From contig CM000150.2 in the NCBI GenBank assembly GCA_000004695.1, positions 3,456,001 through 3,520,000 on the forward strand: DNA of 64,000 nucleotides. The letters run 5' to 3'. The position numbers were made by a program, and so were the translations under genes. The notes beneath the pieces are model-generated. The model was not told the DNA's origin. It did no database searches and saw nothing but the letters and a program-made list of their open reading frames with translations. The DNA comes from Dictyostelium discoideum. Its lineage: Eukaryota. Each line of letters starts with the position of its first letter. Within the stretch, counting starts at the first letter, position 1. Positions 5,467-64,000 of this stretch are shown here, piece by piece.

Positions 5467-6113
5467 TTAATTTGCAGTTGCTTTAATTATTCTAATTTCA
5501 TCAATTGGTTTATCGTTATTTGTTTGCATTGCATTCATTTTTTGTACAACTTTCATTCCAGATTTAACTCTTCCAAAGATTGTATGCTTTCCATCTAACC
5601 AAGGTGTAGGCCCAAATGTAATGCTTTTTCCACACAAAATTAAAGATTAAAAAAAAAAAAAAAATTAAAAAAAAAAAATAAAAATTAGAAAAGATGAATT
5701 GGGTAGGTGTTATATATATATGTTTGTAGATAAGAAAATAATTACAAAAATTGTGATCCATTAGAATTAACACCACTGTTTGCCATTGATAATATTCCTG
5801 CACCTGTATGTTTTAATTCTTTTGTAATTTCATCTTCAAATTTTTTTCTAAGGATTTTATTATTAAAATTATTATTTTCATTTTTATTATTTTCCAAATT
5901 TTAATTCAAGTTAGTTTAATATTATTTTCTAAATTTCTAATTTTATGTAATATTTTTAAATGAAAAATTACCCATATATACTTTCACCTCCACGACCATT
6001 TCCTAATGGATCTCCTCCTTGTATCATAAAATCCTTTATGTTTTATTTAATTTTTTTTTTTTTTTATTAAAAATTTTAAAAAAAATAGTGTTAATGATTA
6101 ATGGATCTTATGA

Positions 6114-6190
<77 letters not shown>

Positions 6191-6395
6191 TAAAATATAG
6201 TAATAATAAGATAAACGAGACCAAGCCAATTGTTTTGTGACATACTTTAATAAGTCTGTGAAAAATTGTATTATCATAATATCCTCTTTTTGACAATTCA
6301 TAAAAGTTTTTACATGCTTTTGGTGCATGGTTATAATATAATTCCAATGTAATATCACCAACTGTTGTTTGAAGTGTTACTGTTTGTTCTGTCAT
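5467..6395 (-). CDS. peptidyl-prolyl cis-trans isomerase, PPIL1-type cyclophilin; 4 exons complement(6246..6395, 5972..6033, 5746..5847, 5467..5623), 156 aa
   Basis: Exon 1 MTEQTVTLQTTVGDITLELYYNHAPKACKNFYELSKRGYYDNTIFHRLIK then GTATGT donor; exon 2 DFMIQGGDPLGNGRGGESIYG (donor GTAATT, phase 2); exon 3 [34 protein letters not shown] (phase 2); exon 4 ITFGPTPWLDGKHTIFGRVKSGMKVVQKMNAMQTNNDKPIDEIRIIKATAN*; collinear with human PPIL1; all splice phases consistent. Confidence 0.85.
6114..6186. repeat. (AAT)n microsatellite (about 24 units) inside PPIL1 intron 1
   Basis: Perfect ATA/AAT triplet run; source of poly-I/poly-L ORF artefacts 6019..6395 in the ORF track. Confidence 0.95.
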
Positions 6396-6535
6396 TTTTT
6401 AAATTTCAAAAATAAACAAAAAAAAAAAATAAAAAAAAAAAAAAATGAAAATGAAAATCAAAAAAAGTGTGTGATTTTTTTTTTTTTTTTTTATTCATTG
6501 TATTATTTTTATTTTTAATTTTATTTTTATTTTTT

Positions 6536-6791
6536 GGAATGTGGAATAAACCTCACACAGATTTTTAATAATCCTTTTTATAAATATTTTTATTATTTTA
6601 AATCAAGTTATCAAAATTTTAATTTTTTATTTGTGTTTTTAATTTTTTTTTTTTTTGTTTTATTTTTTTTTTTTTTTTATTTGTTTATTTTTTAAAAATG
6701 TGAAATGAATCCCACAAAGATTTTTAATAATCATTTTTACTAATATTTTTTATTATTTCCAAACAAGTTATCAAACTTTTTTTAATTTTTT
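6536..6791. repeat. two about 93-bp direct repeats (6536-6628 and 6695-6791, about 85% identity) in the PPIL1 / LRR-IPT intergenic region
   Basis: …aatgtggaataaacctcacacagatttttaataatcctttttataaatatttttattattttaaatcaagttatcaaaattttaatttttt versus …aatgtgaaatgaatcccacaaagatttttaataatcatttttactaatattttttattatttccaaacaagttatcaaactttttttaatttttt. Confidence 0.85.
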
Positions 6792-6819
6792 TTTAATCTC
6801 CCAAAAATTAAAAAAAAAA

Positions 6820-6851
<32 letters not shown>

Positions 6852-7058
6852 GTTGACCAGTGGAATTAAACAAAAAAAAAAAAAAAAATAAACAAAAAAA
6901 TTTCAAAATTTTTAACCTGTTTAAATAATGACAAAATCAATCAAAATATTACCAGGAACAGTAATTTTGAAAAAAAAAAAAGAAAAAAAGAAAGATTTGA
7001 AAAAAAAAAAAGTTCGCACATAATTTTTTTCATACTTGTAAAATATATAATAAATTAA

Positions 7059-7090
<32 letters not shown>

Positions 7091-7313
7091 TTAAAAAATA
7101 ATAATTAATAAAAAAAAAAAAAATAATAATAATAATAATAAATAATAAATAATAAATAATAAATAATAAATAATAAATAACAATAATAAAAATAAAAATA
7201 AAAATAATTAATAATAAATAATAATAATAAATAAAAATAATAAATAATAATATTAATAATAAAATAAAAATAAATAAATAAATAAAAATATTTATTATAA
7301 ATAAATTTGGAAA

Positions 7314-7758
7314 ATGAAAAAAAGAAATAGTTTTCTTTTTATTATATTTCTATGTCTAATTTGTATGATTAATATTGCTTCATCACAAAATTTTATACCA
7401 TTACATGGGGATCAAGATAAAATAGCAGATAAAATTTGTCAACAAATTTCTCAAGGTGCTGTTCAATGCCTAGACCCATGCAAAGAAAGTTATGAGATTT
7501 TCACTTGCAAACTTAGACCAAATACCGATAAATATGATATAGATACAATTAACTTAAAAATAGTTCCTTCATCAGGTATTGAAACCTCTGAAGTTATAGA
7601 AAGTTTTGTTCAATTTAGTCATCTAACCAAATTAACAATTACCGAAGAAATTACAGTTAGAGATCTTTGGGGAAAACTTTTATATGAATATCCAAGTCCT
7701 TTAGAAATGTATGTAAAAATAATAACCTTTTAAAAAATTTAAATTTCTTGTATAATTT

Positions 7759-7804
<46 letters not shown>

Positions 7805-9781
7805 ATATAGTTATATTGTTAGACAAATGGAAAAAATGCCAGATAATTTAACAATGCCAAAAAGATTATGGAAACTTACATTTGGAAAGATTGGTGTACA
7901 AATGCCTTCAAATATGTTTAATGTTACAAGTGATTTAGAATTTTTACAAATTGATACCATTTTGAACACTGGTGTTAATGTATTTCCAGCAAAACATCCA
8001 GAACCAAAGAGTTTGAAAACTTTTATTGGACCAATTACATATTATTCAAATTTCTTCCCATATCCAAGTTATGCATTGCAATTTTGCGAAACCATTCGTC
8101 TTAGAGTCTGGAATGATTACTCTGGTACAAATTATAAAGATTTTAGATTACCAGTTCTATCAAATTTATTATATCTCAAAGATTTAACATATGAATTTAT
8201 TAATAATGATTTTACCGCTCAAATTTTTACATTTGATTATGCAATCTCATCAAATAAAGCTTTGAAATCTTTAACTATTACTGGTAAAGGTATGAGAATG
8301 ACAAGAGATCTTGATCTTTCAAATTTAGCAAAAGGTGCTCATATTTCAATTGATAGAAGTTGTGATGAATTTTTAGCATGTGGTAGTGAACCATGTTTAA
8401 AATTACCAGTAGATGGTTCTTTGTAAGTTTTTTTATATATATATAATATAAATTTTCATTACTTTTATAATATTACTATGTATTAATTAATATATTTTTT
8501 TTTTTTATAAAAATTTATAGATATATTAATAAATGTAATTTCACACTTTCAAAAATTGATTTTTTAAATGCTGTATCAGTTACAATTTTAAATAATAATC
8601 TTGCACAAAATTTACCAAATTTAAGAATTAATTATCCAAAATTAACAAGATTTGATCTTGGTGATAGTAATTTCGCAGGTACAGTTCCAAATGAATATTG
8701 TTTAATTAAAGAAAGTGTATTAAGTGTTGGAAACAATAGATTATCAGGTGTTGTACCTTCATGTTTCGGTTGTGTTGGTGGTGCATTTGTTGCTAGTCAA
8801 GGATTATTCCCAAATAGTTTTACAGATTTTTCAGAGAGTGCTGCACCAACTGCTTGTGAAACTTTCCAAGTATTCGATAATTATTCAAAGGTTGCAAAAA
8901 CTGATGGTAGTTCAGTTATTACTGTTTATGGTCAAGATTTCGGTTGGACATCTACAACCAAACAAGGTGACGCAAGCATTAACATAATTGTACCAAATAG
9001 ACAATTAGAACTTGTTATTCCAAAAGGTGTTGGTACAGATTTGAAATATGTAGCAACTTTCCCTGTTGGTCCAAATGGAATCGATAAAGAGTTTACATTT
9101 AGTTATCAACAACCAGTTATTCGTTATTATTCATTCCTTAAAACTGACACTGCTAATTTCTTTGTTATTAATGGTGATGGTTTCGATTATCAAGGTATTA
9201 ATTCAGTTGAAATTGAAAAAAGTGAATTTCCAAAAAAAACATACGATGGACCAAGTGCTGACGTCGGTGCAACATATGGTGAAATTAAATTACCATTGGA
9301 TGATGTTATTATTGATAATGAACTCGCATCTGGTGCTGTTTTCAAAATTACAGTAACTGTTGGTGGTCAAACCTCAACACAACAATTCACTTATTATGAT
9401 TCAATTACAATCTCTGATGTTGATACTATTAAATTACATACAATTGGTGGTGTTCAAGAATTCAAGGGTCAATTCCCCCCAGTTGATGCAAGTGCCGTCC
9501 AAGTTACTGTTAATAATGTTCCATGTGATATTCGTAAATATTCTGAAACTTCCATTGAAATTGCTTATCCAGCTGTACCAGGTGCAAGTCATTATCCAAT
9601 TAAAATAGTTGTTGGTGGTCTCACTGCTGGAGAATTGGTTGAATTCATTGAGTTACCAACACATAGACCAACATTCGATCCAAATGATGGTTGGATGCCA
9701 ACTGGTTCATCATCAACTTTATTACCAAGTTTCTTTTTAATTTTTATTATTTCTTCTTTATTAATTATTAAATTATTTTAA
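7314..9781 (+). CDS. secreted, probably GPI-anchored leucine-rich-repeat + IPT/TIG-domain protein; 3 exons 7314..7708, 7811(or 7823)..8422, 8521..9781, about 750 aa
   Basis: Signal peptide MKKRNSFLFIIFLCLICMINIASS; GTATGT donor 7709, acceptor tatatAG 7810 (alternative AG 7822), GTAAGT donor 8423, acceptor tttatAG 8520; exon 3 frame open 8521..9781 with plant-type LRR motifs (LSGVVPSCFG, NFAGTVPNEYC) and Ig-like IPT repeats, ending in hydrophobic GPI-signal-like tail SSSTLLPSFFLIFIISSLLIIKLF*. Confidence 0.7.
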
Positions 9782-54768: not shown

Positions 54769-55836
54769 ATGAATGATGAACAGATAACAACAATTAATAA
54801 TCATAATACTCTAGATGAACAAGAAGATGAAATAAACAAATTAACAACATCTTCATCATCATCAACTTCATCATCACCATCAACTTCTTATATTACATTA
54901 AATAATGCACCACCACCAACAACAACACAACCAAAAATTCCAATAATAACACCACCAACAACAACAACAACAACAACCACTACTACTACTTCGAATACTG
55001 CTAATACTACAATAAATAATGATTCAATTTTAAAATTAAATATTGGTGGTGAAATTTATTATACGACTGTATCAACGATATTATCAGACTCAAATTCAAT
55101 GTTTTATTTAATGTTTGGTACTGGTAGATTTAATGTACAGAAAGGAGATGATGGTACTATATTTATTGATAGAGATGGTAGATATTTTCATTACATATTG
55201 AATTGGTTAAGATCAAAATTTATACCATTCATAAAGGATGATGCCATAAGGGATAGTGTTATGAATGAGGCTAAATATTATCAAATCACAAGTTTAATAG
55301 AGTATATGCAATACCAAATAGCATCACAAGCACCACCACCCGATATTGAAAAATTCTCACAAAAAGAAATATTACAATTGGTGAATCTATCACACCCAAA
55401 CCAACCTATTCAATTACCGTCTGCCAATCTATCAGGTTTGGATTTATCAGGTTTGAATTTAAAGAATGCTAATCTTAGATTTGCAAATTTAGAAGGTTCT
55501 CTATTGAAATATTGTAATTTGGAGGATGCAAATCTTGAATCTGCAAATCTTAAAAACTGTGATCTTAGATTTTCAAATATTTCATGTTGCAGTCTACAAA
55601 GAGCTCAACTTCAAAATTCACAACTTCAATACTCTTCCTTTGTTGGCTCAAATCTATCTGATGCTGAATTATGTGATGCACAACTTCAAAGTGCTGATTT
55701 TCAAAGTGCAAATCTTCAAGGTTCAAATCTTCAAGGTGCAAATCTGTTAGATACAAATTTACAAAATGCAAAAGTTCAAGGTACTTCATTTAGTAGAGTT
55801 CTTAATGTTCAACGTGCTAAAAATTTAAAAAGATAA
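54769..55836 (+). CDS. KCTD9-like protein: BTB/POZ (T1-type) domain followed by pentapeptide repeats, 355 aa, single exon
   Basis: BTB core ILKLNIGGEIYYTTVSTILSDSNSMFYLMF...DGTIFIDRDGRYFHYILNWLR; C-terminal tandem A(N/D)LxxA(N/D)L pentapeptide repeats (ANLSGLDLSGLNLKNANLRFANLEGS...ANLQGSNLQGANL); Thr/Ser/Pro-rich N-terminus. Confidence 0.8.
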   Translation: MNDEQITTINNHNTLDEQEDEINKLTTSSSSSTSSSPSTSYITLNNAPPPTTTQPKIPIITPPTTTTTTTTTTTSNTANTTINNDSILKLNIGGEIYYTTVSTILSDSNSMFYLMFGTGRFNVQKGDDGTIFIDRDGRYFHYILNWLRSKFIPFIKDDAIRDSVMNEAKYYQITSLIEYMQYQIASQAPPPDIEKFSQKEILQLVNLSHPNQPIQLPSANLSGLDLSGLNLKNANLRFANLEGSLLKYCNLEDANLESANLKNCDLRFSNISCCSLQRAQLQNSQLQYSSFVGSNLSDAELCDAQLQSADFQSANLQGSNLQGANLLDTNLQNAKVQGTSFSRVLNVQRAKNLKR

Positions 55837-56074: not shown

Positions 56075-58549
56075 TTATTGTTTATCTTTACCATAGACTT
56101 TATTAAGATCATTATTTTCCATACCAAATTCCATTAATACTTTTTCTTGTTGTTTACCCTTTGGAAGTTCAACAGCCTCAGTCCAAGTAGGTTTAAATCT
56201 TAATTCTTTGCTAGCTTCATACTCATCGTAGACTTGTTGTAACTCTTCTTTAGTGTAAGTACCATTCAACCATTTGTTGTATTCTTCCAACTCTTGATTG
56301 GTGAGACTATATACATTTGGATTATAAATTGTGAAAGTACCATTCTTGTAGGAGAAGATACCTAAAGATTTAGCTTGTCTAATGGTTTTAACGATCTTCT
56401 TTTGATGTTTTAAACAATTACCACTGAAATGTCTTGGAAGCATATCACCGGCTTTATTTAAATAGATGGAAAGGAAAGGAGTATTGAGTGGATCAACTTG
56501 CCAATTTGGATTTTGACAAAGGAGACATTTTGGATTCTTTTTTTTTGGTGTAAATAATTTACCAGTGACAGGATGATAGATTGGTGGATCGATATTTGAT
56601 AGGGAACCTTGAGAAACCTCTTGAACGATTTCATTCATAGTTGAAGTGTGATCGTTGTATTCTTGTTCCTTCTTTTGATCGAGTAACTCTTTTTGTTGAT
56701 CGTATTTGTATTTAATGAAATTACGAATCATCATTGGATCTCTGGTCTCGAGTAAATCTTTTTGGAGTTGTTTCTCATTTTCATAGAGTTTAGCTTTGTA
56801 CTCTTCCATGAAAAGGTGGGATTCATATTGTGGTTGATCATTGACGAGATCGATCTTGGTTTGGAAATCATTTAAAAGACCCTCTTGAATGACTCTATCT
56901 TTGAATGCTTTAACCATTGGTGAATCCTCTTTGGTGACCAATACTCTATCCTCTGGGAGCATAATTTCATGGGTTGGGAACTCTTCAGCTTCATTTGGTG
57001 AAAGAGTGACGTGATCACGGAATGAATCACCTAACATCATTGTTCTCCTCTCCTTTTCATTTTCAAGATATTCATAGACTGCGTCCATATATTTACCTTC
57101 AGAAGGTAAGTTAAGACTATATTCAACTAAATCACTACCAAACATATCAATGAAAGTATGTAAGGCATCCATTTCTGATAGAGAAAACTCTTCCAAGATC
57201 TCTTCAACCTCTCTTGCTGATCCTTTTCCATTGGTAAAGCAAATCAACTTGTTGGCAGCGGATTTCAATTTATCAAGTTTTTTTTGACTCTTTACATCCT
57301 CTTCATACAATTTCTCGTATGGCATGGTGAAACCATCATCGAATTGTTTCAATAATTGACCATCTTGATAGATGTAATTACCAGAGTTTTCACTCGAGAA
57401 ATCCAATGAATAACGAGTTAAATCTTCAATACCAAGTGGTTGTTGTAAAAGTTTTTTCATATCAATTGAACCATCCTTTTGAATTGCACCTGCCTCTTTA
57501 GCTTTATATCTTAAAATAGTATTATTTCTAAAGAGAATATCCAATCTCTTCTGCTCCAATGATGAATTGAATTTATAATCTTTTGCTATCTCTTTAATTT
57601 GTAAATCTAAAATCTTTTGTTGAGCTATTCCAATGACTTTTTTCTCTTTCTCTGATAATTCAACTTGAGAGTCGAGTTGGTCGTCATCGGCTTCATTCAC
57701 CATTGAAAATGACTTTAAAGTTTCTGCTGAAATTTCAAAATCATCTCTAAATATTAATTTATCTTTTAATGGAATACCATCATCGAGGAAATTCATAACC
57801 ATGAGTTTAAATTGTGGGTCTTTGTTTGATTGATCTTCCATCTTTTCAATTAACATTTTGATTTTACTTTCTTTATTCTCTAATGAAAATTCTTCATCAT
57901 GATCTTCTTCATCAAGTTGATCAATTTCTTCATCTATTCCTCCAACTTTTTGATCTGCAACCAATGGTGATGGGAATGCATCACGCAAAATTGGGTCATA
58001 TCTGATTTTTTCGGTTTGTGTAACTTTGTGGATTGGAATTTTCATACCAGTGGTTTCATCAATTGGTCTTTTAGATTCAAATTCTTTCTCTTTATCTTTT
58101 TTTAATTTCTCTGCTTCGGCATCCAAGAGACCGTTGGCTTTAAAACGTTCAAATTCAAATTTATTCACTGATGCAAGTTGTGATCTAGTGACAACACCTT
58201 TTTTCTCTAAAAATCTCTTCCACAATTGTAATTCTGCTTCTTTTTGTTCTTTACTTTGTATTGAGAATTGTTCAATCTTTGGATCTAATGCATTTTCAAT
58301 TGATGAAACTTGTTGTTGAAGATTATTAACTGTATCTAATTGTCCTAAAAGTCTTGATTTTGTTATCTCTTTAATTAATTCTGATTTCTTTTTAATTAAT
58401 TCTCTATTCTCTTTAAATTTTTCAAATGATATTGAATGATCATGATTACCACTATGATCATTACAATAATTTCTTGTAATTGAAATTTGACCTTTATTTT
58501 TTAAAAATAAATTTTTATTTTTAATTGATAATCTTATTATTGATTGCAT
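56075..58549 (-). CDS. 824-aa mitochondrial protein with a C-terminal ribosomal protein bS18 (MRPS18) domain and long coiled-coil N-terminal extension
   Basis: C-terminal ...CLLCQNPNWQVDPLNTPFLSIYLNKAGDMLPRHFSGNCLKHQKKIVKTIRQAKSLGIFSY matches the S18 signature (C..C...I.YKN..LL..FI...GKILPRR.TG.C.K.QR.L..AIKRAR..GLLP); N-terminus MQSIIRLSIKNKNLFLKNKGQISITRNY is presequence-like; the remainder is charged coiled-coil; continuous ORF. Confidence 0.65.
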   Translation of the reverse strand: MQSIIRLSIKNKNLFLKNKGQISITRNYCNDHSGNHDHSISFEKFKENRELIKKKSELIKEITKSRLLGQLDTVNNLQQQVSSIENALDPKIEQFSIQSKEQKEAELQLWKRFLEKKGVVTRSQLASVNKFEFERFKANGLLDAEAEKLKKDKEKEFESKRPIDETTGMKIPIHKVTQTEKIRYDPILRDAFPSPLVADQKVGGIDEEIDQLDEEDHDEEFSLENKESKIKMLIEKMEDQSNKDPQFKLMVMNFLDDGIPLKDKLIFRDDFEISAETLKSFSMVNEADDDQLDSQVELSEKEKKVIGIAQQKILDLQIKEIAKDYKFNSSLEQKRLDILFRNNTILRYKAKEAGAIQKDGSIDMKKLLQQPLGIEDLTRYSLDFSSENSGNYIYQDGQLLKQFDDGFTMPYEKLYEEDVKSQKKLDKLKSAANKLICFTNGKGSAREVEEILEEFSLSEMDALHTFIDMFGSDLVEYSLNLPSEGKYMDAVYEYLENEKERRTMMLGDSFRDHVTLSPNEAEEFPTHEIMLPEDRVLVTKEDSPMVKAFKDRVIQEGLLNDFQTKIDLVNDQPQYESHLFMEEYKAKLYENEKQLQKDLLETRDPMMIRNFIKYKYDQQKELLDQKKEQEYNDHTSTMNEIVQEVSQGSLSNIDPPIYHPVTGKLFTPKKKNPKCLLCQNPNWQVDPLNTPFLSIYLNKAGDMLPRHFSGNCLKHQKKIVKTIRQAKSLGIFSYKNGTFTIYNPNVYSLTNQELEEYNKWLNGTYTKEELQQVYDEYEASKELRFKPTWTEAVELPKGKQQEKVLMEFGMENNDLNKVYGKDKQ

Positions 58550-59794: not shown

Positions 59795-61258
59795 ATGTTT
59801 TCAAAAAAAATATCATTGTATAATAAAACTAATGGAAAAAAAGATAATTCATCAAAAGTATTTTTATTTGTAATATTATTTGTTGTTTTAGTAATTGTTT
59901 TTGTGCAAAGTTTAAGTATTTCACAATTTAACAATGAAATCTCACAAACAACCTCAATAACTATAGATACTAAAGAAAGTAATGATAATAATAATTTAAT
60001 TATTAATAAAAATAATAATAATGAAAATATAAATAATAATAATAATAATGATAATAATGAAAGTGATGAAGATGCATTATTAAGAAAACAACATCAAGAA
60101 TTTAAAGAAGCAGAAGAGAAAGCAAATAAAGGAAAAAGTTTATCATATGCAACAAGATCATATGCAACTAGAAAACCAAAAGAAAAATCAGAACAACAAA
60201 TTGAAAATGAAAAATTAACATTATTAGAGAAAGATATTTTAAGAGGTAGAGTTTTTAAAGAGTTTAAAGATGAAGTTGAAATATTAAAGAGTCTTGACAC
60301 TGATCCAGGTTATGCAAGCATATTGAATTTACCAGATTATAAGCCACCAACAGGTGACGAATTGGTAGACAAAGTTAAAGATACCACATGGAAATTAAGT
60401 AAAGAGGAAAACCCATTCTATTTACCAAAACCACATATTTTCATCCACGTTCCAAAGGCAGCAGGAAGCAGTTTGGGTGGAATTTTCAAGAGAAATGAAA
60501 AGCGTGATAAATTTGCGCACCATTGGAAACATCCATCCTATTCAGAACTTGAAAGTACTATGCAAAAAGATTCAATTTTCGGACATATTAGATACGGTCT
60601 TCATTTCTATTTCAATGATAATGACCCAACTAGAGTACCAGAGAATCCATATGGTTTAAATAAGTATTCCTATATGACAATGTTAAGAGAACCAGTGGAT
60701 AGAGTCATCTCAAATTACTATTATCATAGACAAAATAGAAAAGATCCATTCCATGAATTAGCAATGAATCATAATTTAACAGAATGGATTAAAGTTGCTG
60801 CAGCTGGTAATAATGAGCAAGCCAGAATGATTTGTGGTATGGGTTGGGAGGATTTCGGTAACCAAACCATCTACGATATGGCACTCCATCATTTAAAATA
60901 CACTTTTAAATTTGTCGGTATAACTGAACAATTTACAGAGAGTTTGGTTTTATTTTCCCATTATAGTGGTTTTCAAAATATTAGATACTCTAAAATCAAT
61001 ACCGGTAGACAAAGAGTATCTGTTGATAAAATTCCTGACGATTTAAGAAAAGAGATTGAAGAAAGAAATTGGATAGATGTTGCACTCTATAAAATGGCTT
61101 TAGATATCTATAATAAACAAATTGATCAAATTGGTAGAGATTTCTTTGAACAAGAAGTAGCCGCTTACAAAGATAGATATTTATCTGGAAAATATAAAGT
61201 ACCAAATATTTTACATACAACTAAACCAGTTGAACAAACTCAACAACAACAACAATAA
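59795..61258 (+). CDS. type-II membrane sulfotransferase (Sulfotransfer_2 / HS6ST-like family), 487 aa, single exon
   Basis: N-terminal TM anchor VFLFVILFVVLVIVFV; 5'-PSB motif HVPKAAGSS and 3'-PB motif LREPVDRVISNYYY; poly-N/acidic stem region. Confidence 0.8.
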   Translation: MFSKKISLYNKTNGKKDNSSKVFLFVILFVVLVIVFVQSLSISQFNNEISQTTSITIDTKESNDNNNLIINKNNNNENINNNNNNDNNESDEDALLRKQHQEFKEAEEKANKGKSLSYATRSYATRKPKEKSEQQIENEKLTLLEKDILRGRVFKEFKDEVEILKSLDTDPGYASILNLPDYKPPTGDELVDKVKDTTWKLSKEENPFYLPKPHIFIHVPKAAGSSLGGIFKRNEKRDKFAHHWKHPSYSELESTMQKDSIFGHIRYGLHFYFNDNDPTRVPENPYGLNKYSYMTMLREPVDRVISNYYYHRQNRKDPFHELAMNHNLTEWIKVAAAGNNEQARMICGMGWEDFGNQTIYDMALHHLKYTFKFVGITEQFTESLVLFSHYSGFQNIRYSKINTGRQRVSVDKIPDDLRKEIEERNWIDVALYKMALDIYNKQIDQIGRDFFEQEVAAYKDRYLSGKYKVPNILHTTKPVEQTQQQQQ

Positions 61259-61399
61259 AAAAAAAAAAAAAAAAAAAAAAAAAATAAAAATTAAAAATTA
61301 AATTAAATTAAATTAAAAAAAAAAAAAAAAAGATTTAAAAAAGTTTAATATTTATTTGTTATTATTATTGTTTTTTAAAAAAGATAAAAAAATTTAAAA

Positions 61400-61872
61400 T
61401 TAATTTCTTAAAAATAATGATTTATCTAATGTCATTCCTAAAATTACCCAACCTGCCATAAACAAGAATCCACCAATTGGAGAAACACCCTATTATTAAG
61501 TTTTAAAAAATTTTAAAATTTTTAGTATTTTTTTTTTTTTACCAAAGTCTGGATAAATTTTTTTTTTTTTTTTTTTTTTTCTTTTTTCAAAATAATTACT
61601 ATTTTTCTATTTGTAAGTGATAAATTATATAATGATCCACTAAATAATAAAATTCCAGTTAAAAACATTGGACCAACAATATTTTGTTGTGTTGAGAATG
61701 GAACAAGGAATAAGGCAAATGAATGATAAAGATGGTATTGTTGTGCAGTTTTCCAAATATCTTGACGTGCTACATCAGTAACTTTTTTCTTTAATCCATG
61801 TCCACCATAAGCACCTGAAATAATAGCACTACAAGCGCTAATTCCACCAATTTTCCACCAAAGTTCGTTCAT
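61400..61872 (-). CDS. TMEM256 / DUF423-family small membrane protein, paralogue A; exons complement(61600..61872, 61400..61489), 120 aa
   Basis: MNELWWKIGGISACSAIISGAYGGHGL...YHLYHSFALFLVPFS...GPMFLTGILLFSGSLY... matches TMEM256 (GAHG, HxxLHSxAL motifs); donor GTAATT 61599, acceptor aataatAG 61490; exon 2 GVSPIGGFLFMAGWVILGMTLDKSLFLRN*; phase 0. Confidence 0.75.
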
Positions 61873-61892
61873 TTTTAATAATATTGAGATAA

Positions 61893-61923
<31 letters not shown>

Positions 61924-61940
61924 TTAAAAAAATTTTGGCC

Positions 61941-61972
<32 letters not shown>

Positions 61973-62241
61973 AAAAACATATCAAATCAAAATAATTAAA
62001 CTATTTTGTAATCATTCAAAAATAATTAAGATTAAAAAAAAAAAAAAAAAAATTAAATATAGAAATTTAAAAAAAATGAATTGTTTTGAGTGATTAAAAA
62101 AAAATAATTCAAAATAATAAAAAAAGTTAAAACACCATGGTGAAAATATTAATTTCCCAAAATACATCCACATAAAAAAAATATAATTATTGTGTGTTTG
62201 TATTATTATCCACTTTTGAATTTTATTTATTATTAATAAAT

Positions 62242-62306
<65 letters not shown>

Positions 62307-62439
62307 TAATTATTGGGCACAATTACACTAATAACTTAATCAATTAAGAAAAAATAAATAATAGGACAAAGGTAAATAAAATTTGAAAAATAAAAAAAAA
62401 AATATAAAAAAAAAAAGAAATAATAATCATTTTCTTAAT

Positions 62440-62734
62440 CTGATTCAGCGGTTCATTTGGTTTAGGTTAAACAGGTACAGGCTCATAAGGTATAAAGCAT
62501 TTATCCGGTACAGGTTTATTAGGTTCATCAAGTAAAAATGCATATTTAAGGTTTATCAGATTCAAAAATTTTAACATTTGATAGGTACAGGTTTAACAGG
62601 TACATGTTTATAAGGTACAGCTTAAGCAGGTTCATCAGGAACAGGTCTAACATGTTCATAGGGTTTATCAAGTTTTTAAAGTGCAGGTTAAACAGGTGCA
62701 GGCTTGACAATTTCATCAAGTTTTACAGTTTAAC
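62440..62734. repeat. GC-richer degenerate minisatellite-like array (about 10-12-bp units around ACAGGT(A/T)CAGGTTTA) at the duplication junction
   Basis: Recurring caggtacagg / aggttcatca / aaggtacag / caggtgcagg motifs over about 300 bp; composition is atypical for Dictyostelium intergenic DNA; no long ORF. Confidence 0.6.
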
Positions 62735-62807
62735 ATATAGATATTTATCTGGAAAATATAAAATATTAAATATTTTACAAACAACTAACAACTCAAAAAT
62801 AAAATAA
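62735..62807 (+). pseudogene. duplicated 3'-terminal fragment of the sulfotransferase gene (relic at the tandem-duplication junction)
   Basis: 62735-62800 atagatatttatctggaaaatataaaatattaaatattttacaaacaactaacaactc is about 85% identical to 61193-61258 (…DRYLSGKYKVPNILHTTKPVEQ…); it encodes ...RYLSGKYKILNILQTTNNSKIK* with no upstream coding body. Confidence 0.55.
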
Positions 62808-62934
62808 AATAAAATAAATTTAAATAAAATAATTATCTAATAAATTAAATTAAATTAAATAAAAAAAAAAAGATTAAAGAGAGTGTAAAATTTATTTATT
62901 GGTTTTTAAAAAAAAGGATGGAAAAAAATTAAAA

Positions 62935-63427
62935 TTAATTCTTCAAAAATAATGATTTATCTATAGTCATTCCTAAAATTACCCAACCTGCCATAAATGA
63001 TACTCCACCAATTGGAGGAAGTTTCTATAATTTTTAAAAAATAAAAATTTTAGTTTTTTTTTTTTTTTTTAATAATTACTATTTTTCTATTTGTAAGTGA
63101 TATATAATATAATGATAAATTTTTTTTTTTTTTTTTTTTTTTTTTAATAATTACTATTTTTCTATTTGTAAGTGATATATAATATAATGATCCACTAAAT
63201 AATAATATTCCACTTAAAAACATTGGGCCAACAATATTTTGTTGTGTTGAGAAGGGAACAAGGAATAAGGCAAATGAATGATAAAGATGGTATTGTTGTC
63301 CAATTTTCCAAATTTCTTGACGTGCCACATCGGGAACTTTTTTCTTTAATCCATGTCCACCATAAGCACCTGAAATTATAGCACTACAAGCAACAACTCC
63401 ACCAATTTTCCACCAAAGTTCATTCAT
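62935..63427 (-). CDS. TMEM256 / DUF423-family small membrane protein, paralogue B (about 90% identical to A); exons complement(63155..63427, 62935..63024), 120 aa
   Basis: MNELWWKIGGVVACSAIISGAYGGHGL...; donor GTAATT 63154, acceptor aaattatAG 63025; exon 2 KLPPIGGVSFMAGWVILGMTIDKSLFLKN*; the intron contains a second, micro-duplicated copy of the exon-1 end + donor (63061-63106) separated by T25. Confidence 0.7.
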
Positions 63428-64000
63428 TTTTAATAGTATTGAGAAAATAAAAAAAAAAAAAAATTAAAATAAAATTTTATTTAAAAAAAAAAATATCATA
63501 TACAAAATTACAAAAAATGTTATATTAATATTTTTAAGCGTTGTATGAAAATATTAATTTTTATAAAAACAATAATAAAAAAAAAAGTATTTATTAGTGT
63601 GTTTATGTTATTATTCACTATTGAATTATTATCATAATTAATGAAAAAAAATTGATCTATTAGAAAAAGAATTAACCGGTAAAGTGGTTTATCTAGATTT
63701 TTTTAAAAATTGTAATGTTTATCTAATTAAGATTTAAAATATTTTTTTAGTCTGAAATTATAAAAAAGAATTACAAATTACATCAAAAACTAAAAATAAA
63801 CTAACGTTTAATGATAAAAAAATTAATAATTCCAATAATAATTGTCTTAATTATAATTTCATCTAAATTTCTTTTTTTTTAATTTACATTAATAAAAAAA
63901 AAAAAAAATTTTAATAAATGAAATTCATTTTTTTGGGTGTTTTTTGTTTTCCTTAATTTACATTAAAAAAAAATAAAAAAAATTAGCGGTGGGCAAAAAT

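What the first reader, a model, noticed from the sequence alone, without database searches (positions are those of the whole stretch)
61190..64000. About 1.5-kb tandem segmental duplication carrying the TMEM256/DUF423 gene and the 3' end of the sulfotransferase gene
Two TMEM256-like genes sit head-to-tail on the minus strand: 61400-61872 and 62935-63427. They share about 90% identity over exons, intron positions (GTAATT donor after codon 91, phase 0) and 5' and 3' flanks (for example ttcttaaaaataatgatttatc... and ...taatattgagataaaa in both). The last about 65 bp of the sulfotransferase CDS (61193-61258) reappears at 62735-62800 in the same position relative to copy B. The unit therefore runs from the sulfotransferase 3' end through the TMEM256 gene. 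Copy 2 keeps only a sulfotransferase stub. This is a recent duplication with one intact and one possibly diverging small-membrane-protein gene.
Basis: seen in the sequence. Interest (0 to 1): 0.55.

Follow-up and report, generated by a model that had tools for sequence, protein, structure and literature searches.

The report
Tandem duplicate of TMEM256 gene
Two neighbouring copies of a small mitochondrial-type membrane protein gene (TMEM256/DUF423) in Dictyostelium discoideum come from a real but ordinary tandem duplication that is already annotated; one copy keeps the ancestral protein and the other evolves about five times faster.

Summary
The window is D. discoideum AX4 chromosome 1. The two minus-strand genes are the annotated paralogues DDB_G0269766 (copy A, "TMEM256 homolog") and DDB_G0270942 (copy B). 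Both encode 120 aa, match Pfam DUF423 and have a phase-0 intron after codon 91. Collinear similarity runs 61173-61925 <-> 62737-63476 (BLAST E 5e-169), with a weaker upstream block at 62141-62246 <-> 63546-63651. It covers exons (91%), intron, both flanks and a 64-bp stub of the sulfotransferase 3' end.

It is not an assembly artefact: the copies differ by 9-20%, and other assemblies carry both. It is also not recent. A basal discoideum-clade isolate has an orthologous copy B with 11 shared derived substitutions. Another isolate keeps a deleted remnant of B. Two D. discoideum isolates, D. citrinum, D. dimigraforme and D. firmibasis have one gene. The duplication therefore dates to about the base of the discoideum clade and has since been remodelled or lost.

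Copy B is intact and constrained (tip dN/dS about 0.3) but evolves far faster than A (24-28 versus 4-6 unique changes). The AX4 junction holds an unexplained 289-bp, 15-nt-periodic insert. Overall this is an ordinary, annotated tandem duplicate of low interest.

The parts
59795..61258 (+). Sulfotransferase-family gene DDB_G0269764 (487 aa). It is convergent with copy A, and its last 86 bp (61173-61258) are the source of the stub.
   Evidence: ORF. Pfam PF03567 Sulfotransfer_2, E 5e-12. Exact match to XP_646260.1.
61173..61399 (.). Copy-A side of the duplicated 3' region: the sulfotransferase 3' CDS end (61173-61258) plus the 141-bp stop-to-stop intergenic region (61259-61399).
   Evidence: Aligns to 62737-62934 at 89-90% ungapped identity.
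61400..61872 (-). Copy A: DDB_G0269766, TMEM256 homolog (Q55D70), 120 aa. Exon 1 is 61872-61600, the intron 61599-61490, exon 2 61489-61400. This is the conserved copy.
   Evidence: Gene model and translation. Pfam DUF423, E 4e-22. Exact match to XP_646261.1. It differs by 1-3 nonsynonymous changes from the inferred ancestor.
61873..62246 (.). Upstream region of copy A that belongs to the duplicated unit: a proximal block (61873-61925), an expanded AT-rich middle with an 82-bp-period repeat (61946-62125), and a diverged distal block (62141-62246).
   Evidence: Alignments to 63428-63476 and 63546-63651. TRF result.
62247..62447 (.). AT-rich spacer (12% GC, with a 59-nt poly(A) run at 62243-62301) between the two units. 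It is shared with isolates L003 (to window 62447) and in part L002, and is absent from single-copy genomes.
62448..62736 (.). A 289-bp, 34% GC, degenerate 15-nt-periodic insert exactly at the duplication junction. It is AX4-specific among the genomes compared, and its origin is unknown.
   Evidence: TRF consensus AGGTACAGGTTTAAC. No match in the window or in L001-L008. No protein or Pfam match. In L003 the stub abuts the equivalent of window 62447 directly.
62737..62800 (+). Sulfotransferase stub: a 64-bp truncated copy of 61173-61258 with two deletions. It marks the junction of the duplication.
   Evidence: 93% identity over the first 43 bp. Full alignment.
62801..62934 (.). 3' flank of copy B, a copy of 61259-61399. 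An AATAAA motif is retained, as seen directly in the sequence.
   Evidence: 90% ungapped identity. Sequence read.
62935..63427 (-). Copy B: DDB_G0270942 (Q55D69), DUF423 protein, 120 aa. Exon 1 is 63427-63155, the intron 63154-63025, exon 2 63024-62935. This is the fast-evolving copy.
   Evidence: Gene model. Pfam DUF423, E 1e-21. Exact match to XP_646262.1. Relative-rate tests.
63048..63191 (-). A 75-bp tandem duplication inside copy B. The last 37 nt of exon 1 plus the GTAATT donor (63123-63191) are repeated within the intron (63048-63116). The second donor G is at 63079.
   Evidence: 97% identity over 69 bp. Spacing of 75 nt and the in-frame alternative product. Absent from the orthologous B copy in L002, whose intron is 84 nt.
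63428..63726 (.). Upstream region of copy B. This is the ancestral upstream DNA that leads towards the divergently transcribed SET-domain gene beyond the window end. 63428-63651 is the part duplicated upstream of copy A.
   Evidence: About 93% identical to the upstream region of the single-copy gene in L004. BLAST to L004 and L005 at 87-88%.

Best explanation
This is a lineage-specific tandem gene duplication in Dictyostelium discoideum AX4 chromosome 1.

Ancestral arrangement (shown by relatives): SET-domain gene, then a shared upstream region, then one TMEM256/DUF423 gene, then a convergent sulfotransferase gene.

Origin. A segment was duplicated in tandem. It ran from inside the sulfotransferase 3' coding region, at least about 300 bp from its stop, through the TMEM256 gene to at least 225 bp upstream of its ATG. 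The mechanism is inferred to be unequal exchange or replication-based rejoining in poly(A/T)-rich DNA. The result was: SET, upstream, B, sulfotransferase stub, spacer, upstream copy, A, intact sulfotransferase.

Timing. This happened at about the base of the D. discoideum clade, after the split from D. citrinum.

Later changes.
- Copy A, next to the intact sulfotransferase, kept the ancestral protein.
- Copy B, next to the ancestral upstream region, took 11 nonsynonymous and 3 synonymous changes on its stem (dN/dS about 1). It then settled under purifying selection (dN/dS about 0.3).
- The junction and copy number kept changing. AX4 trimmed the stub to 64 bp and gained a 289-bp periodic insert and a 75-bp intronic duplication. 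One isolate gained a partial third copy. One deleted most of B. Two D. discoideum isolates have a single gene, from clean loss or lineage sorting.

Function (inferred from the family). Both proteins are small multi-pass membrane proteins of the TMEM256 type. [quoted passage not shown] Copy A probably carries the ancestral role. Copy B is probably a dispensable, specialising or sub-functionalised paralogue.
For: Identity of the locus and genes: exact protein matches to XP_646259-62 of AX4, with Pfam DUF423 and Sulfotransfer_2 hits.

Extent of similarity through intron, flanks and stub.

Unduplicated state: D. dimigraforme, D. firmibasis, two D. citrinum isolates and two D. discoideum isolates each carry one gene between the SET and sulfotransferase genes (tblastn). 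In these genomes the upstream region matches B's upstream and the downstream region matches A's.

Same duplication in other isolates:
- L002 has B, a partial copy and A.
- L003 has B's upstream plus 21 codons with B-type codons 11-12, a sulfotransferase fragment, and then A.
- AX4_B and the L002 B copy share 11 derived substitutions.

Local tree: ((((AX4,(FIR,FIW)),FIY),FIZ),citrinum...).

Timing: 3'-flank identity is 90.3% for A versus B, 89.5% for AX4 versus FIZ, and 85-88% for AX4 versus citrinum. dS is 0.19 for A-B and 0.13-0.14 for AX4-citrinum, on about 77 synonymous sites.

Selection and asymmetry:
- For constraint on the two B tips combined, binomial p = 0.001.
- Tajima relative-rate tests give 24-28 unique changes in B against 4-6 in A, p <= 0.001.

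Family function: PMC8664129.
Against: - The coding sequence is only 363 nt, so dS values and branch counts carry large errors. dS for A-B (0.19) is nominally higher than for AX4-citrinum (0.13-0.14), so an older origin cannot be excluded.
- The L002 A and B copies share 4 exclusive sites, and their dS (0.12) is lower than that between the two B copies (0.25). This points to some gene conversion, which blurs dating.
- The constraint test for the AX4_B tip alone is only marginal (p = 0.06).
- B has been lost or is absent in three of the six discoideum-clade genomes for which there is evidence, so it is dispensable.
- There is no expression, localisation or knockout evidence for either Dictyostelium gene. 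No paper mentions them.
- The spacer and the 289-bp insert at the junction have no identified source, so the rearrangement was not a simple two-breakpoint tandem copy as it now stands.
Confidence: 0.85

Rival explanations
1. Assembly artefact: a single gene was written twice, or an allelic or strain variant was placed in tandem in the AX4 reference.
For: The region is full of long poly(A)/poly(T) runs that are hard to assemble. The AX4 contig itself could not be re-fetched for checking.
Against: - The copies differ at 32 of 363 coding sites and by many indels in the flanks. Artefactual duplicates would be near-identical.
- D. discoideum is haploid (stated in the abstract of PMC5391098, listed).
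- Both proteins occur with identical sequence under a second set of accessions from another assembly: KAM9941051.1 and KAM9941052.1.
- An independently assembled Nanopore genome (L002) has B and A in the same order, and L003 has a B remnant.
Confidence: 0.01
2. A much older duplication that predates the discoideum-citrinum split or earlier, followed by independent clean losses of B in D. citrinum, D. dimigraforme, D. firmibasis and some D. discoideum isolates.
For: dS for A-B (0.19) is nominally above dS for AX4-citrinum (0.13-0.14). Clean loss clearly can happen or be mimicked, since FIW and FIR lack B although they nest inside the clade that has it. Gene conversion could have rejuvenated the copies.
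Against: - It needs at least three extra independent losses that leave no remnant.
- Neutral 3'-flank divergence between A and B (9.7%) is below AX4-citrinum (12-15%) and equals AX4-FIZ (10.5%).
- In the NJ tree of coding sequences, the B clade nests within the discoideum-clade A sequences.
Confidence: 0.1
3. Copy B is a non-functional or decaying duplicate in AX4 whose open reading frame survives only by chance.
For: - B is deleted in L003 and absent in L004 and L005, so it is dispensable.
- dN/dS was about 1 on its stem.
- AX4_B has lost a 58-bp proximal upstream segment.
- AX4_B has acquired a duplicated splice donor in its intron.
- The constraint test for the AX4_B tip alone is marginal (p = 0.06).
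Against: - The 120-codon ORF, splice sites and stop are intact in both AX4 and L002 after long independent evolution.
- The two B tips together have 16 synonymous and 19 nonsynonymous changes, against a neutral expectation of about 7.5 and 27.5 (p = 0.001).
- The Pfam DUF423 score is almost unchanged (77.1 versus 78.7 bits).
- There are no frameshifts, even though indels are abundant in the adjacent non-coding DNA.
Confidence: 0.15
4. Independent, recurrent duplications of the same gene in the AX4 lineage and in the cryptic-species isolates, rather than one ancestral event.
For: - The sulfotransferase stubs differ between strains: window 61173-61258 in AX4, the equivalent of 61148-61194 in L003, and the equivalent of 60950-61031 in L002.
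- L002 has made at least one further partial copy, so the site is prone to duplication.
- The L002 A and B copies share 4 exclusive sites.
Against: - The AX4 and L002 B copies share 11 derived substitutions, 6 of them amino-acid changes (V11, P32, Y83, I84, P95, I111).
- The L003 remnant carries the B-type GTT-GT codons and the same proximal upstream deletion as AX4_B.
- AX4 and L003 share the same spacer and the right-hand junction sequence at window 62447.
- The different stub pieces are compatible with different deletions from one longer stub.
Confidence: 0.03

Closest known systems
TMEM256 / DUF423 family (Pfam PF04241; human TMEM256; bacterial YgdD-type proteins)
   Same: Both copies match PF04241 over its whole length (profile positions 2-86 of 86) well above the gathering score. 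UniProt names copy A 'Transmembrane protein 256 homolog'. They are about 120 aa with several hydrophobic segments. Related single-copy genes occur in D. purpureum, Heterostelium, Acytostelium and bacteria.
   Different: The function in Dictyostelium is untested. The association of TMEM256 with the TIM23 core and TIMM21 is shown only for the human protein (PMC8664129). No solved structure of the family was found by sequence search. Two adjacent paralogues were seen here only in part of the discoideum clade.
Ordinary young-to-middle-aged tandem gene duplicates with asymmetric divergence (birth-and-death evolution); in Dictyostelium, for example, the tgr gene arrays described in PMC12745789
   Same: It shows head-to-tail copies, a truncated neighbouring gene at the junction, partial copies and remnants in other strains, presence/absence variation, some gene conversion, and one conserved and one accelerated copy. 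[quoted passage not shown]
   Different: Here there are only two copies of a housekeeping-type gene. There is no large family, no evidence of diversifying selection and no hypermutable hotspot.
Large segmental duplications of laboratory D. discoideum stocks (PMC2643946; the AX4 chromosome 2 duplication)
   Same: These are also duplications within D. discoideum genomes.
   Different: Per the abstract shown, those are duplications of 15 kb or more that are common in axenic laboratory stocks. They are therefore recent copies (inference). This one is about 1.5 kb, 9-20% diverged, and shared with wild isolates of sister lineages.

Membership tests
DUF423 / TMEM256 (PF04241) | Significant full-length match to the family HMM above Pfam's gathering score | tested here: met
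   Copy A scores 78.7 bits (E 4e-22) and copy B 77.1 bits (E 1e-21), against a cut-off of 25. Residues 20-98 match profile positions 2-86 of 86.
DUF423 / TMEM256 (PF04241) | Small (about 110-130 aa) multi-pass membrane protein | tested here: met
   Both copies are 120 aa. A Kyte-Doolittle scan gives hydrophobic stretches at about residues 4-22, 66-86 and 95-115. This is only a crude hydropathy test, and topology was not modelled.
DUF423 / TMEM256 (PF04241) | Mitochondrial inner-membrane location and association with TIM23/TIMM21, as shown for human TMEM256 | not testable with these tools
   Known only for the human protein (PMC8664129). No Dictyostelium data were found.
Tandem segmental (DNA-level) gene duplication | Two collinear copies in the same orientation, with similarity extending beyond the CDS into intron and flanks | tested here: met
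   61173-61925 <-> 62737-63476 and 62141-62246 <-> 63546-63651. The intron is at the same codon and phase.
Tandem segmental (DNA-level) gene duplication | A junction signature, meaning a truncated copy of a neighbouring feature at the internal boundary | tested here: met
   The sulfotransferase 3' stub lies at 62737-62800. Other stub pieces sit at the same place in L002 and L003.
Tandem segmental (DNA-level) gene duplication | An unduplicated state at the syntenic site in outgroups | tested here: met
   There is a single gene between the SET and sulfotransferase genes in L001 and L004-L008.
Tandem segmental (DNA-level) gene duplication | Directly abutting units, with the end of unit 1 joined to the start of unit 2 and no foreign DNA between them | tested here: not met
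   In AX4 a 490-bp spacer (62247-62736) separates the recognisable units. It includes a 289-bp insert with no counterpart anywhere examined. This is read as later remodelling, because L003 lacks the insert.
Tandem segmental (DNA-level) gene duplication | Not an assembly artefact | tested here: met
   The copies differ by 9-20%. Both genes appear under a second accession set and in an independent long-read assembly. Read-level support was not testable.
Retrocopy (processed duplicate) | Loss of introns, a poly(A) tail at the 3' end, and no shared flanks | tested here: not met
   The intron is retained at the same position, and both flanks plus the neighbouring-gene stub are copied.
Sulfotransferase family (PF03567), for the neighbouring gene | HMM match above the gathering score | tested here: met
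   46.8 bits against a cut-off of 22, with residues 215-433 matching profile positions 12-250 of 252. The stub at 62737-62800 is far too short to encode a domain.

The most novel reading that the evidence does not exclude
Copy B may be a neofunctionalised TMEM256 paralogue. For example, it could be an alternative accessory subunit of the mitochondrial presequence translocase or respiratory-chain assembly line, arising by a burst of amino-acid change right after the duplication. Its presence/absence and structural polymorphism among D. discoideum and its cryptic sister species could then have fitness or mito-nuclear compatibility consequences. Separately, the AX4-only 289-bp periodic insert together with the sulfotransferase stub forms an open 86-codon frame (62550-62807) that could be a nascent chimeric gene.
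Probability: 0.08. Interest if true: 0.4.

Novelty: already known. Interest (0 to 1): 0.2.

Why it matters
It matters little beyond bookkeeping. Both genes are in the AX4 reference annotation, and tandem duplicates with asymmetric divergence are commonplace.

It has three modest uses:
1. It is a small, fully resolved example of birth, remodelling and loss of a duplicate across the new discoideum-clade genomes: intact pair, pair plus partial third copy, deleted remnant, and single gene.
2. Anyone studying the poorly understood TMEM256/DUF423 family in Dictyostelium needs to know that AX4/AX2 carry two paralogues while other isolates carry one. A single knockout may therefore be buffered.
3. The junction shows how poly(A/T)-rich DNA in this genome accumulates secondary duplications and insertions.

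Tried and rejected
1. The AX4 or AX2 contig beyond window position 64000 could not be retrieved by exact-protein look-up. Four look-ups (copies A and B, the sulfotransferase and the S18-like protein) were all 'not on record'. As a result, B's upstream region as far as the SET gene, and the presence of the 289-bp insert in AX2, could not be checked.

2. The source of the 289-bp junction insert (62448-62736) was not found.
- There was no blastn or tblastx match in the window or the eight related loci.
- There was no homologue of its Pro-rich conceptual translation among 5.8 billion proteins.
- There was no Pfam hit for four conceptual readings.
- It shows no similarity to the sulfotransferase body, so it is not a decayed stub.
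- A weak resemblance to the pentapeptide-repeat gene at 54769-55836 (E 0.47; 61% nucleotide identity) was judged to be chance.

3. Extension of the duplicated unit beyond 63651 was tested by matching 62247-62595 against 63652-64000. No similarity above the AT-rich background was found.

4. A first significance control using random window segments was confounded by poly(A) runs. It was replaced by a whole-window ranking.

5. tRNA and Rfam scans of the window found nothing.

6. Literature searches found no paper naming either gene. The 2005 genome paper is not held. PMC3188802 has nothing on tandem duplicates.

7. The PDB sequence search gave only a spurious designed-protein hit.

8. The multiple alignment of the upstream regions was too AT-rich to add resolution on whether the single-copy D. 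discoideum isolates lost B by unequal crossing-over.

Full report
WHAT THE WINDOW IS

The window is 18-30% GC. Exact-sequence look-up places it on the 4.92-Mb chromosome 1 contig of Dictyostelium discoideum AX4. Four translated genes are identical to consecutive RefSeq proteins:
- XP_646259 (DDB_G0269762), an 824-aa protein with a ribosomal S18 domain, at 56075-58549 on the minus strand.
- XP_646260 (DDB_G0269764), a sulfotransferase-family protein, at 59795-61258 on the plus strand.
- XP_646261 (DDB_G0269766), which UniProt names 'Transmembrane protein 256 homolog'.
- XP_646262 (DDB_G0270942), a 'DUF423 domain-containing protein'.

Both genes of the finding are therefore already annotated.

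CHECK OF THE OBSERVATION

- Copy A is 61872-61600 plus 61489-61400.
- Copy B is 63427-63155 plus 63024-62935.
- Both have a GTAATT donor after codon 91 (phase 0) and encode 120 aa.
- Both match Pfam DUF423 over the whole profile, at 78.7 and 77.1 bits against a cut-off of 25.
- The coding sequences are 91.2% identical (32 of 363 differences), and the proteins share 104 of 120 residues.

A low-complexity-filtered self-BLAST gives 61245-61925 <-> 62780-63476 (E 5e-169) and 61173-61215 <-> 62737-62779 (93%). By segment, ungapped identity is as follows:
- sulfotransferase stub: 89%
- stop-to-stop 3' flank: 90%
- exon 2: 84%
- alignable intron: 95%
- exon 1: 93%
- proximal 5' flank: 90%

A further collinear block, 62141-62246 <-> 63546-63651 (81%), is the best match to that segment anywhere in the window on either strand. 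The recognisable unit therefore reaches at least 225 bp upstream of the ATG.

The stub corresponds to 86 bp of sulfotransferase CDS (61173-61258), shortened to 64 bp in copy B. The region 62247-62736 has no counterpart upstream of copy B inside the window. So the 1.5-kb period is not 1.5 kb of duplicated sequence.

NOT AN ARTEFACT AND NOT A RETROCOPY

Four points argue against an artefact or retrocopy:
- The copies are 9-20% diverged with many indels.
- The intron, both flanks and a piece of the neighbouring gene are copied.
- Both proteins occur under a second accession set (KAM9941051.1 and KAM9941052.1) from another D. discoideum assembly. This is probably AX2-214 of PMC12745789, which is my inference from the accession order and Table 1 of that paper.
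- An independent Nanopore/Illumina assembly has both genes in the same order.

COMPARATIVE EVIDENCE

I fetched the syntenic locus from eight genomes. All show this order: proteasome subunit, MINDY, SET-domain gene (divergent), DUF423, sulfotransferase (convergent), S18.

Six genomes have a single DUF423 gene, confirmed by tblastn:
- D. dimigraforme (L001)
- D. firmibasis (L006)
- two D. citrinum isolates (L007, L008)
- two D. discoideum isolates (L004 ACTFIW, L005 ACTFIR)

In L004 the upstream region of the single gene is about 93% identical to the upstream region of AX4 copy B. The gene and everything downstream match copy A. This is what a tandem duplication of an ancestral single gene predicts.

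L002 ('D. cf. discoideum', ACTFIZ) has the following, in order:
- B at 6001-6447
- a sulfotransferase fragment equivalent to window 60950-61031
- spacer
- a partial third copy at 7261-7552 (exon-1 end, intron, exon 2 and 3' flank)
- the same sulfotransferase fragment again
- A at 7949-8407

L003 ('D. cf. discoideum', ACTFIY) has A plus a remnant of B. The remnant consists of B's upstream region and the first 21 codons, with the B-type GTT-GT at codons 11-12. A sulfotransferase fragment equivalent to window 61148-61194 follows, and then the same spacer that lies upstream of AX4 copy A from window 62447 downward.

The three strains keep different pieces of the stub. The original breakpoint in the sulfotransferase gene was therefore at or beyond about position 60950, and the present AX4 stub is a trimmed remainder.

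ONE ORIGIN AND ITS AGE

The AX4 and L002 B copies share 11 derived substitutions that are absent from every discoideum-clade A sequence. These include six amino-acid changes. The event therefore happened once.

A neighbour-joining tree of 1 kb of the adjacent sulfotransferase gene gives ((((AX4,(FIR,FIW)),FIY),FIZ),citrinum...). JC distances from AX4 are:
- FIW: 0.023
- FIY: 0.029
- FIZ: 0.054
- citrinum: about 0.105
- firmibasis: 0.131

B or its remnant is present in FIZ, FIY and AX4, so the duplication predates the radiation of this clade.

Neutral 3'-flank identity is 90.3% for A versus B, 89.5% for AX4 versus FIZ, and 85-88% for AX4 versus citrinum. dS is 0.19 for A-B, 0.13 for AX4-FIZ_A and 0.13-0.14 for AX4-citrinum, on only about 77 synonymous sites. 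Together with six remnant-free single-copy genomes, the most economical reading is an origin near the base of the discoideum clade, after the citrinum split.

The authors of the assemblies put discoideum-firmibasis divergence at 50-100 My (PMC12745789). By crude proportion, the duplication is on the order of tens of millions of years old. This is my inference and is very rough. 'Recent' is not the right word.

FIW and FIR nest next to AX4 yet lack B and any remnant. I could not tell whether this reflects a clean secondary loss, such as unequal crossing-over between the units, or lineage sorting of a presence/absence polymorphism.

FATE OF THE COPIES

Parsimony branch counts are as follows:

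| Branch | Synonymous | Nonsynonymous | dN/dS |
|---|---|---|---|
| B stem | 3 | 11 | about 1.0 |
| AX4_B tip | 6 | 8 | 0.36 |
| FIZ_B tip | 10 | 11 | 0.30 |
| A lineages | 3-6 | 1-3 | 0.09-0.27 |

Other tests:
- The two B tips together depart from neutrality (16 synonymous of 35 changes against 21% expected; p = 0.001).
- The AX4_B tip alone is marginal (p = 0.06).
- Tajima relative-rate tests with four outgroups give 24-28 changes unique to B against 4-6 unique to A in AX4 (p = 0.001 to 2e-5). In FIZ the counts are 24-30 against 0-3.

So A keeps the ancestral protein. B changed quickly after the duplication and is now constrained, though dispensable in some lineages. Four sites exclusive to FIZ_A plus FIZ_B hint at limited gene conversion there. 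No such sites are seen in AX4.

WHAT THE GENES DO

This part is inferred. The family has no solved structure by sequence search. Human TMEM256 is an abundant mitochondrial protein, presumed to sit in the inner membrane. It co-purifies with the TIM23 core (TIMM23, TIMM17B, TIMM50) and TIMM21, and its depletion mildly impairs precursor import (PMC8664129). No paper in the library mentions either Dictyostelium gene.

UNEXPLAINED DETAIL

Exactly at the AX4 junction lies a 289-bp stretch (62448-62736) with these properties:
- It is 34% GC in 12-20% GC surroundings.
- It has a degenerate 15-nt period with consensus AGGTACAGGTTTAAC.
- It is absent from the same junction in L003.
- It has no nucleotide, translated, protein-database or Pfam match.
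- One plus-strand frame is open for 86 codons (62550-62807) and runs in frame into the stub.

I regard it as a lineage-specific insertion or an expanded minisatellite of unknown source.

VERDICT

The finding is a correct observation of an ordinary, already annotated tandem gene duplicate. The interpretation needs three amendments: the duplication is old rather than recent, both copies are intact, and the junction has been remodelled. Interest is low.

Noticed in passing
window 63048-63191 (copy B intron / exon-1 end): A 75-bp tandem duplication (69 bp at 97% identity) repeats the last 37 nt of exon 1 plus the GTAATT donor inside the intron. Use of the second donor (G at 63079) would stay in frame and add 25 aa ([25 protein letters not shown]). 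That product is not in the protein collection. The orthologous B copy in L002 lacks the duplication.
   Followed up: partly
window 62448-62736: A 289-bp, 34% GC, degenerate 15-nt-periodic stretch lies at the duplication junction. It is AX4-specific among nine genomes and has no detectable homologue at DNA, translated or protein level. Its origin is unknown.
   Followed up: yes
window 62550-62807 (+), ORF 62604-62807: An open frame of 86 codons (67 aa from the first ATG) with an 'RYRFN'-like 5-residue period reads from the junction insert, in frame, into the sulfotransferase stub (…YRYLSGKYKILNILQTTNNSKIK*). It is not annotated, and it is unknown whether it is ever transcribed.
   Followed up: partly
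window 61946-62125 and 62243-62301: Copy A's upstream region contains an 82-bp-period repeat (2.2 copies, 73% matches) and a perfect 59-nt poly(A) run. These account for much of the length difference between the two upstream regions (215 bp versus 69 bp in the middle segment).
   Followed up: no
L002 6448-7948 (D. cf. discoideum ACTFIZ, GCA_054859235.1): Between B and A there is a partial third copy (7261-7552: exon-1 end, donor, intron, degenerate exon 2 and 3' flank). There are also internal repeats of the spacer (6787-7030 ~ 7616-7861), of the sulfotransferase fragment (6493-6534 ~ 7553-7593) and of B's upstream region (5687-5831 ~ 7056-7194). The locus has duplicated again in this lineage.
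   Followed up: partly
L003 4957-5536 (D. cf. discoideum ACTFIY, GCA_054859205.1): A remnant of copy B is present: its upstream region plus the first 21 codons (with a 9-nt insertion), then a deletion of about 660 bp, then a sulfotransferase fragment equivalent to window 61148-61194. That fragment extends 25 nt further into the gene than the AX4 stub.
   Followed up: yes
L002, CDS positions 57, 159, 192, 241 of the DUF423 genes: Four substitutions are shared only by the A and B copies of isolate ACTFIZ. Their dS (0.12) is lower than the dS between the two orthologous B copies (0.25). This suggests gene conversion between paralogues in that lineage.
   Followed up: partly
window 56075-58549 (-): DDB_G0269762 is an 824-aa protein in which the ribosomal protein S18 domain occupies only residues 689-731. 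The very long N-terminal extension is conserved in length (822-867 aa) in the other Dictyostelium species fetched.
   Followed up: no
window 54769-55836 (+): A 355-aa single-exon ORF with pentapeptide repeats in its C-terminal part (…ANLSGLDLSGLNLKNANLRFANLEG…). Its orthologue in L006 carries Pfam BTB_2 and Pentapeptide hits. It has a weak, probably chance resemblance to part of the junction insert.
   Followed up: partly
window 63868-63910 and 63940-63984: A small direct repeat (87% over 45 nt, 'ttaatttacattaa…aaaaaaaa') lies in the far upstream region of copy B.
   Followed up: no
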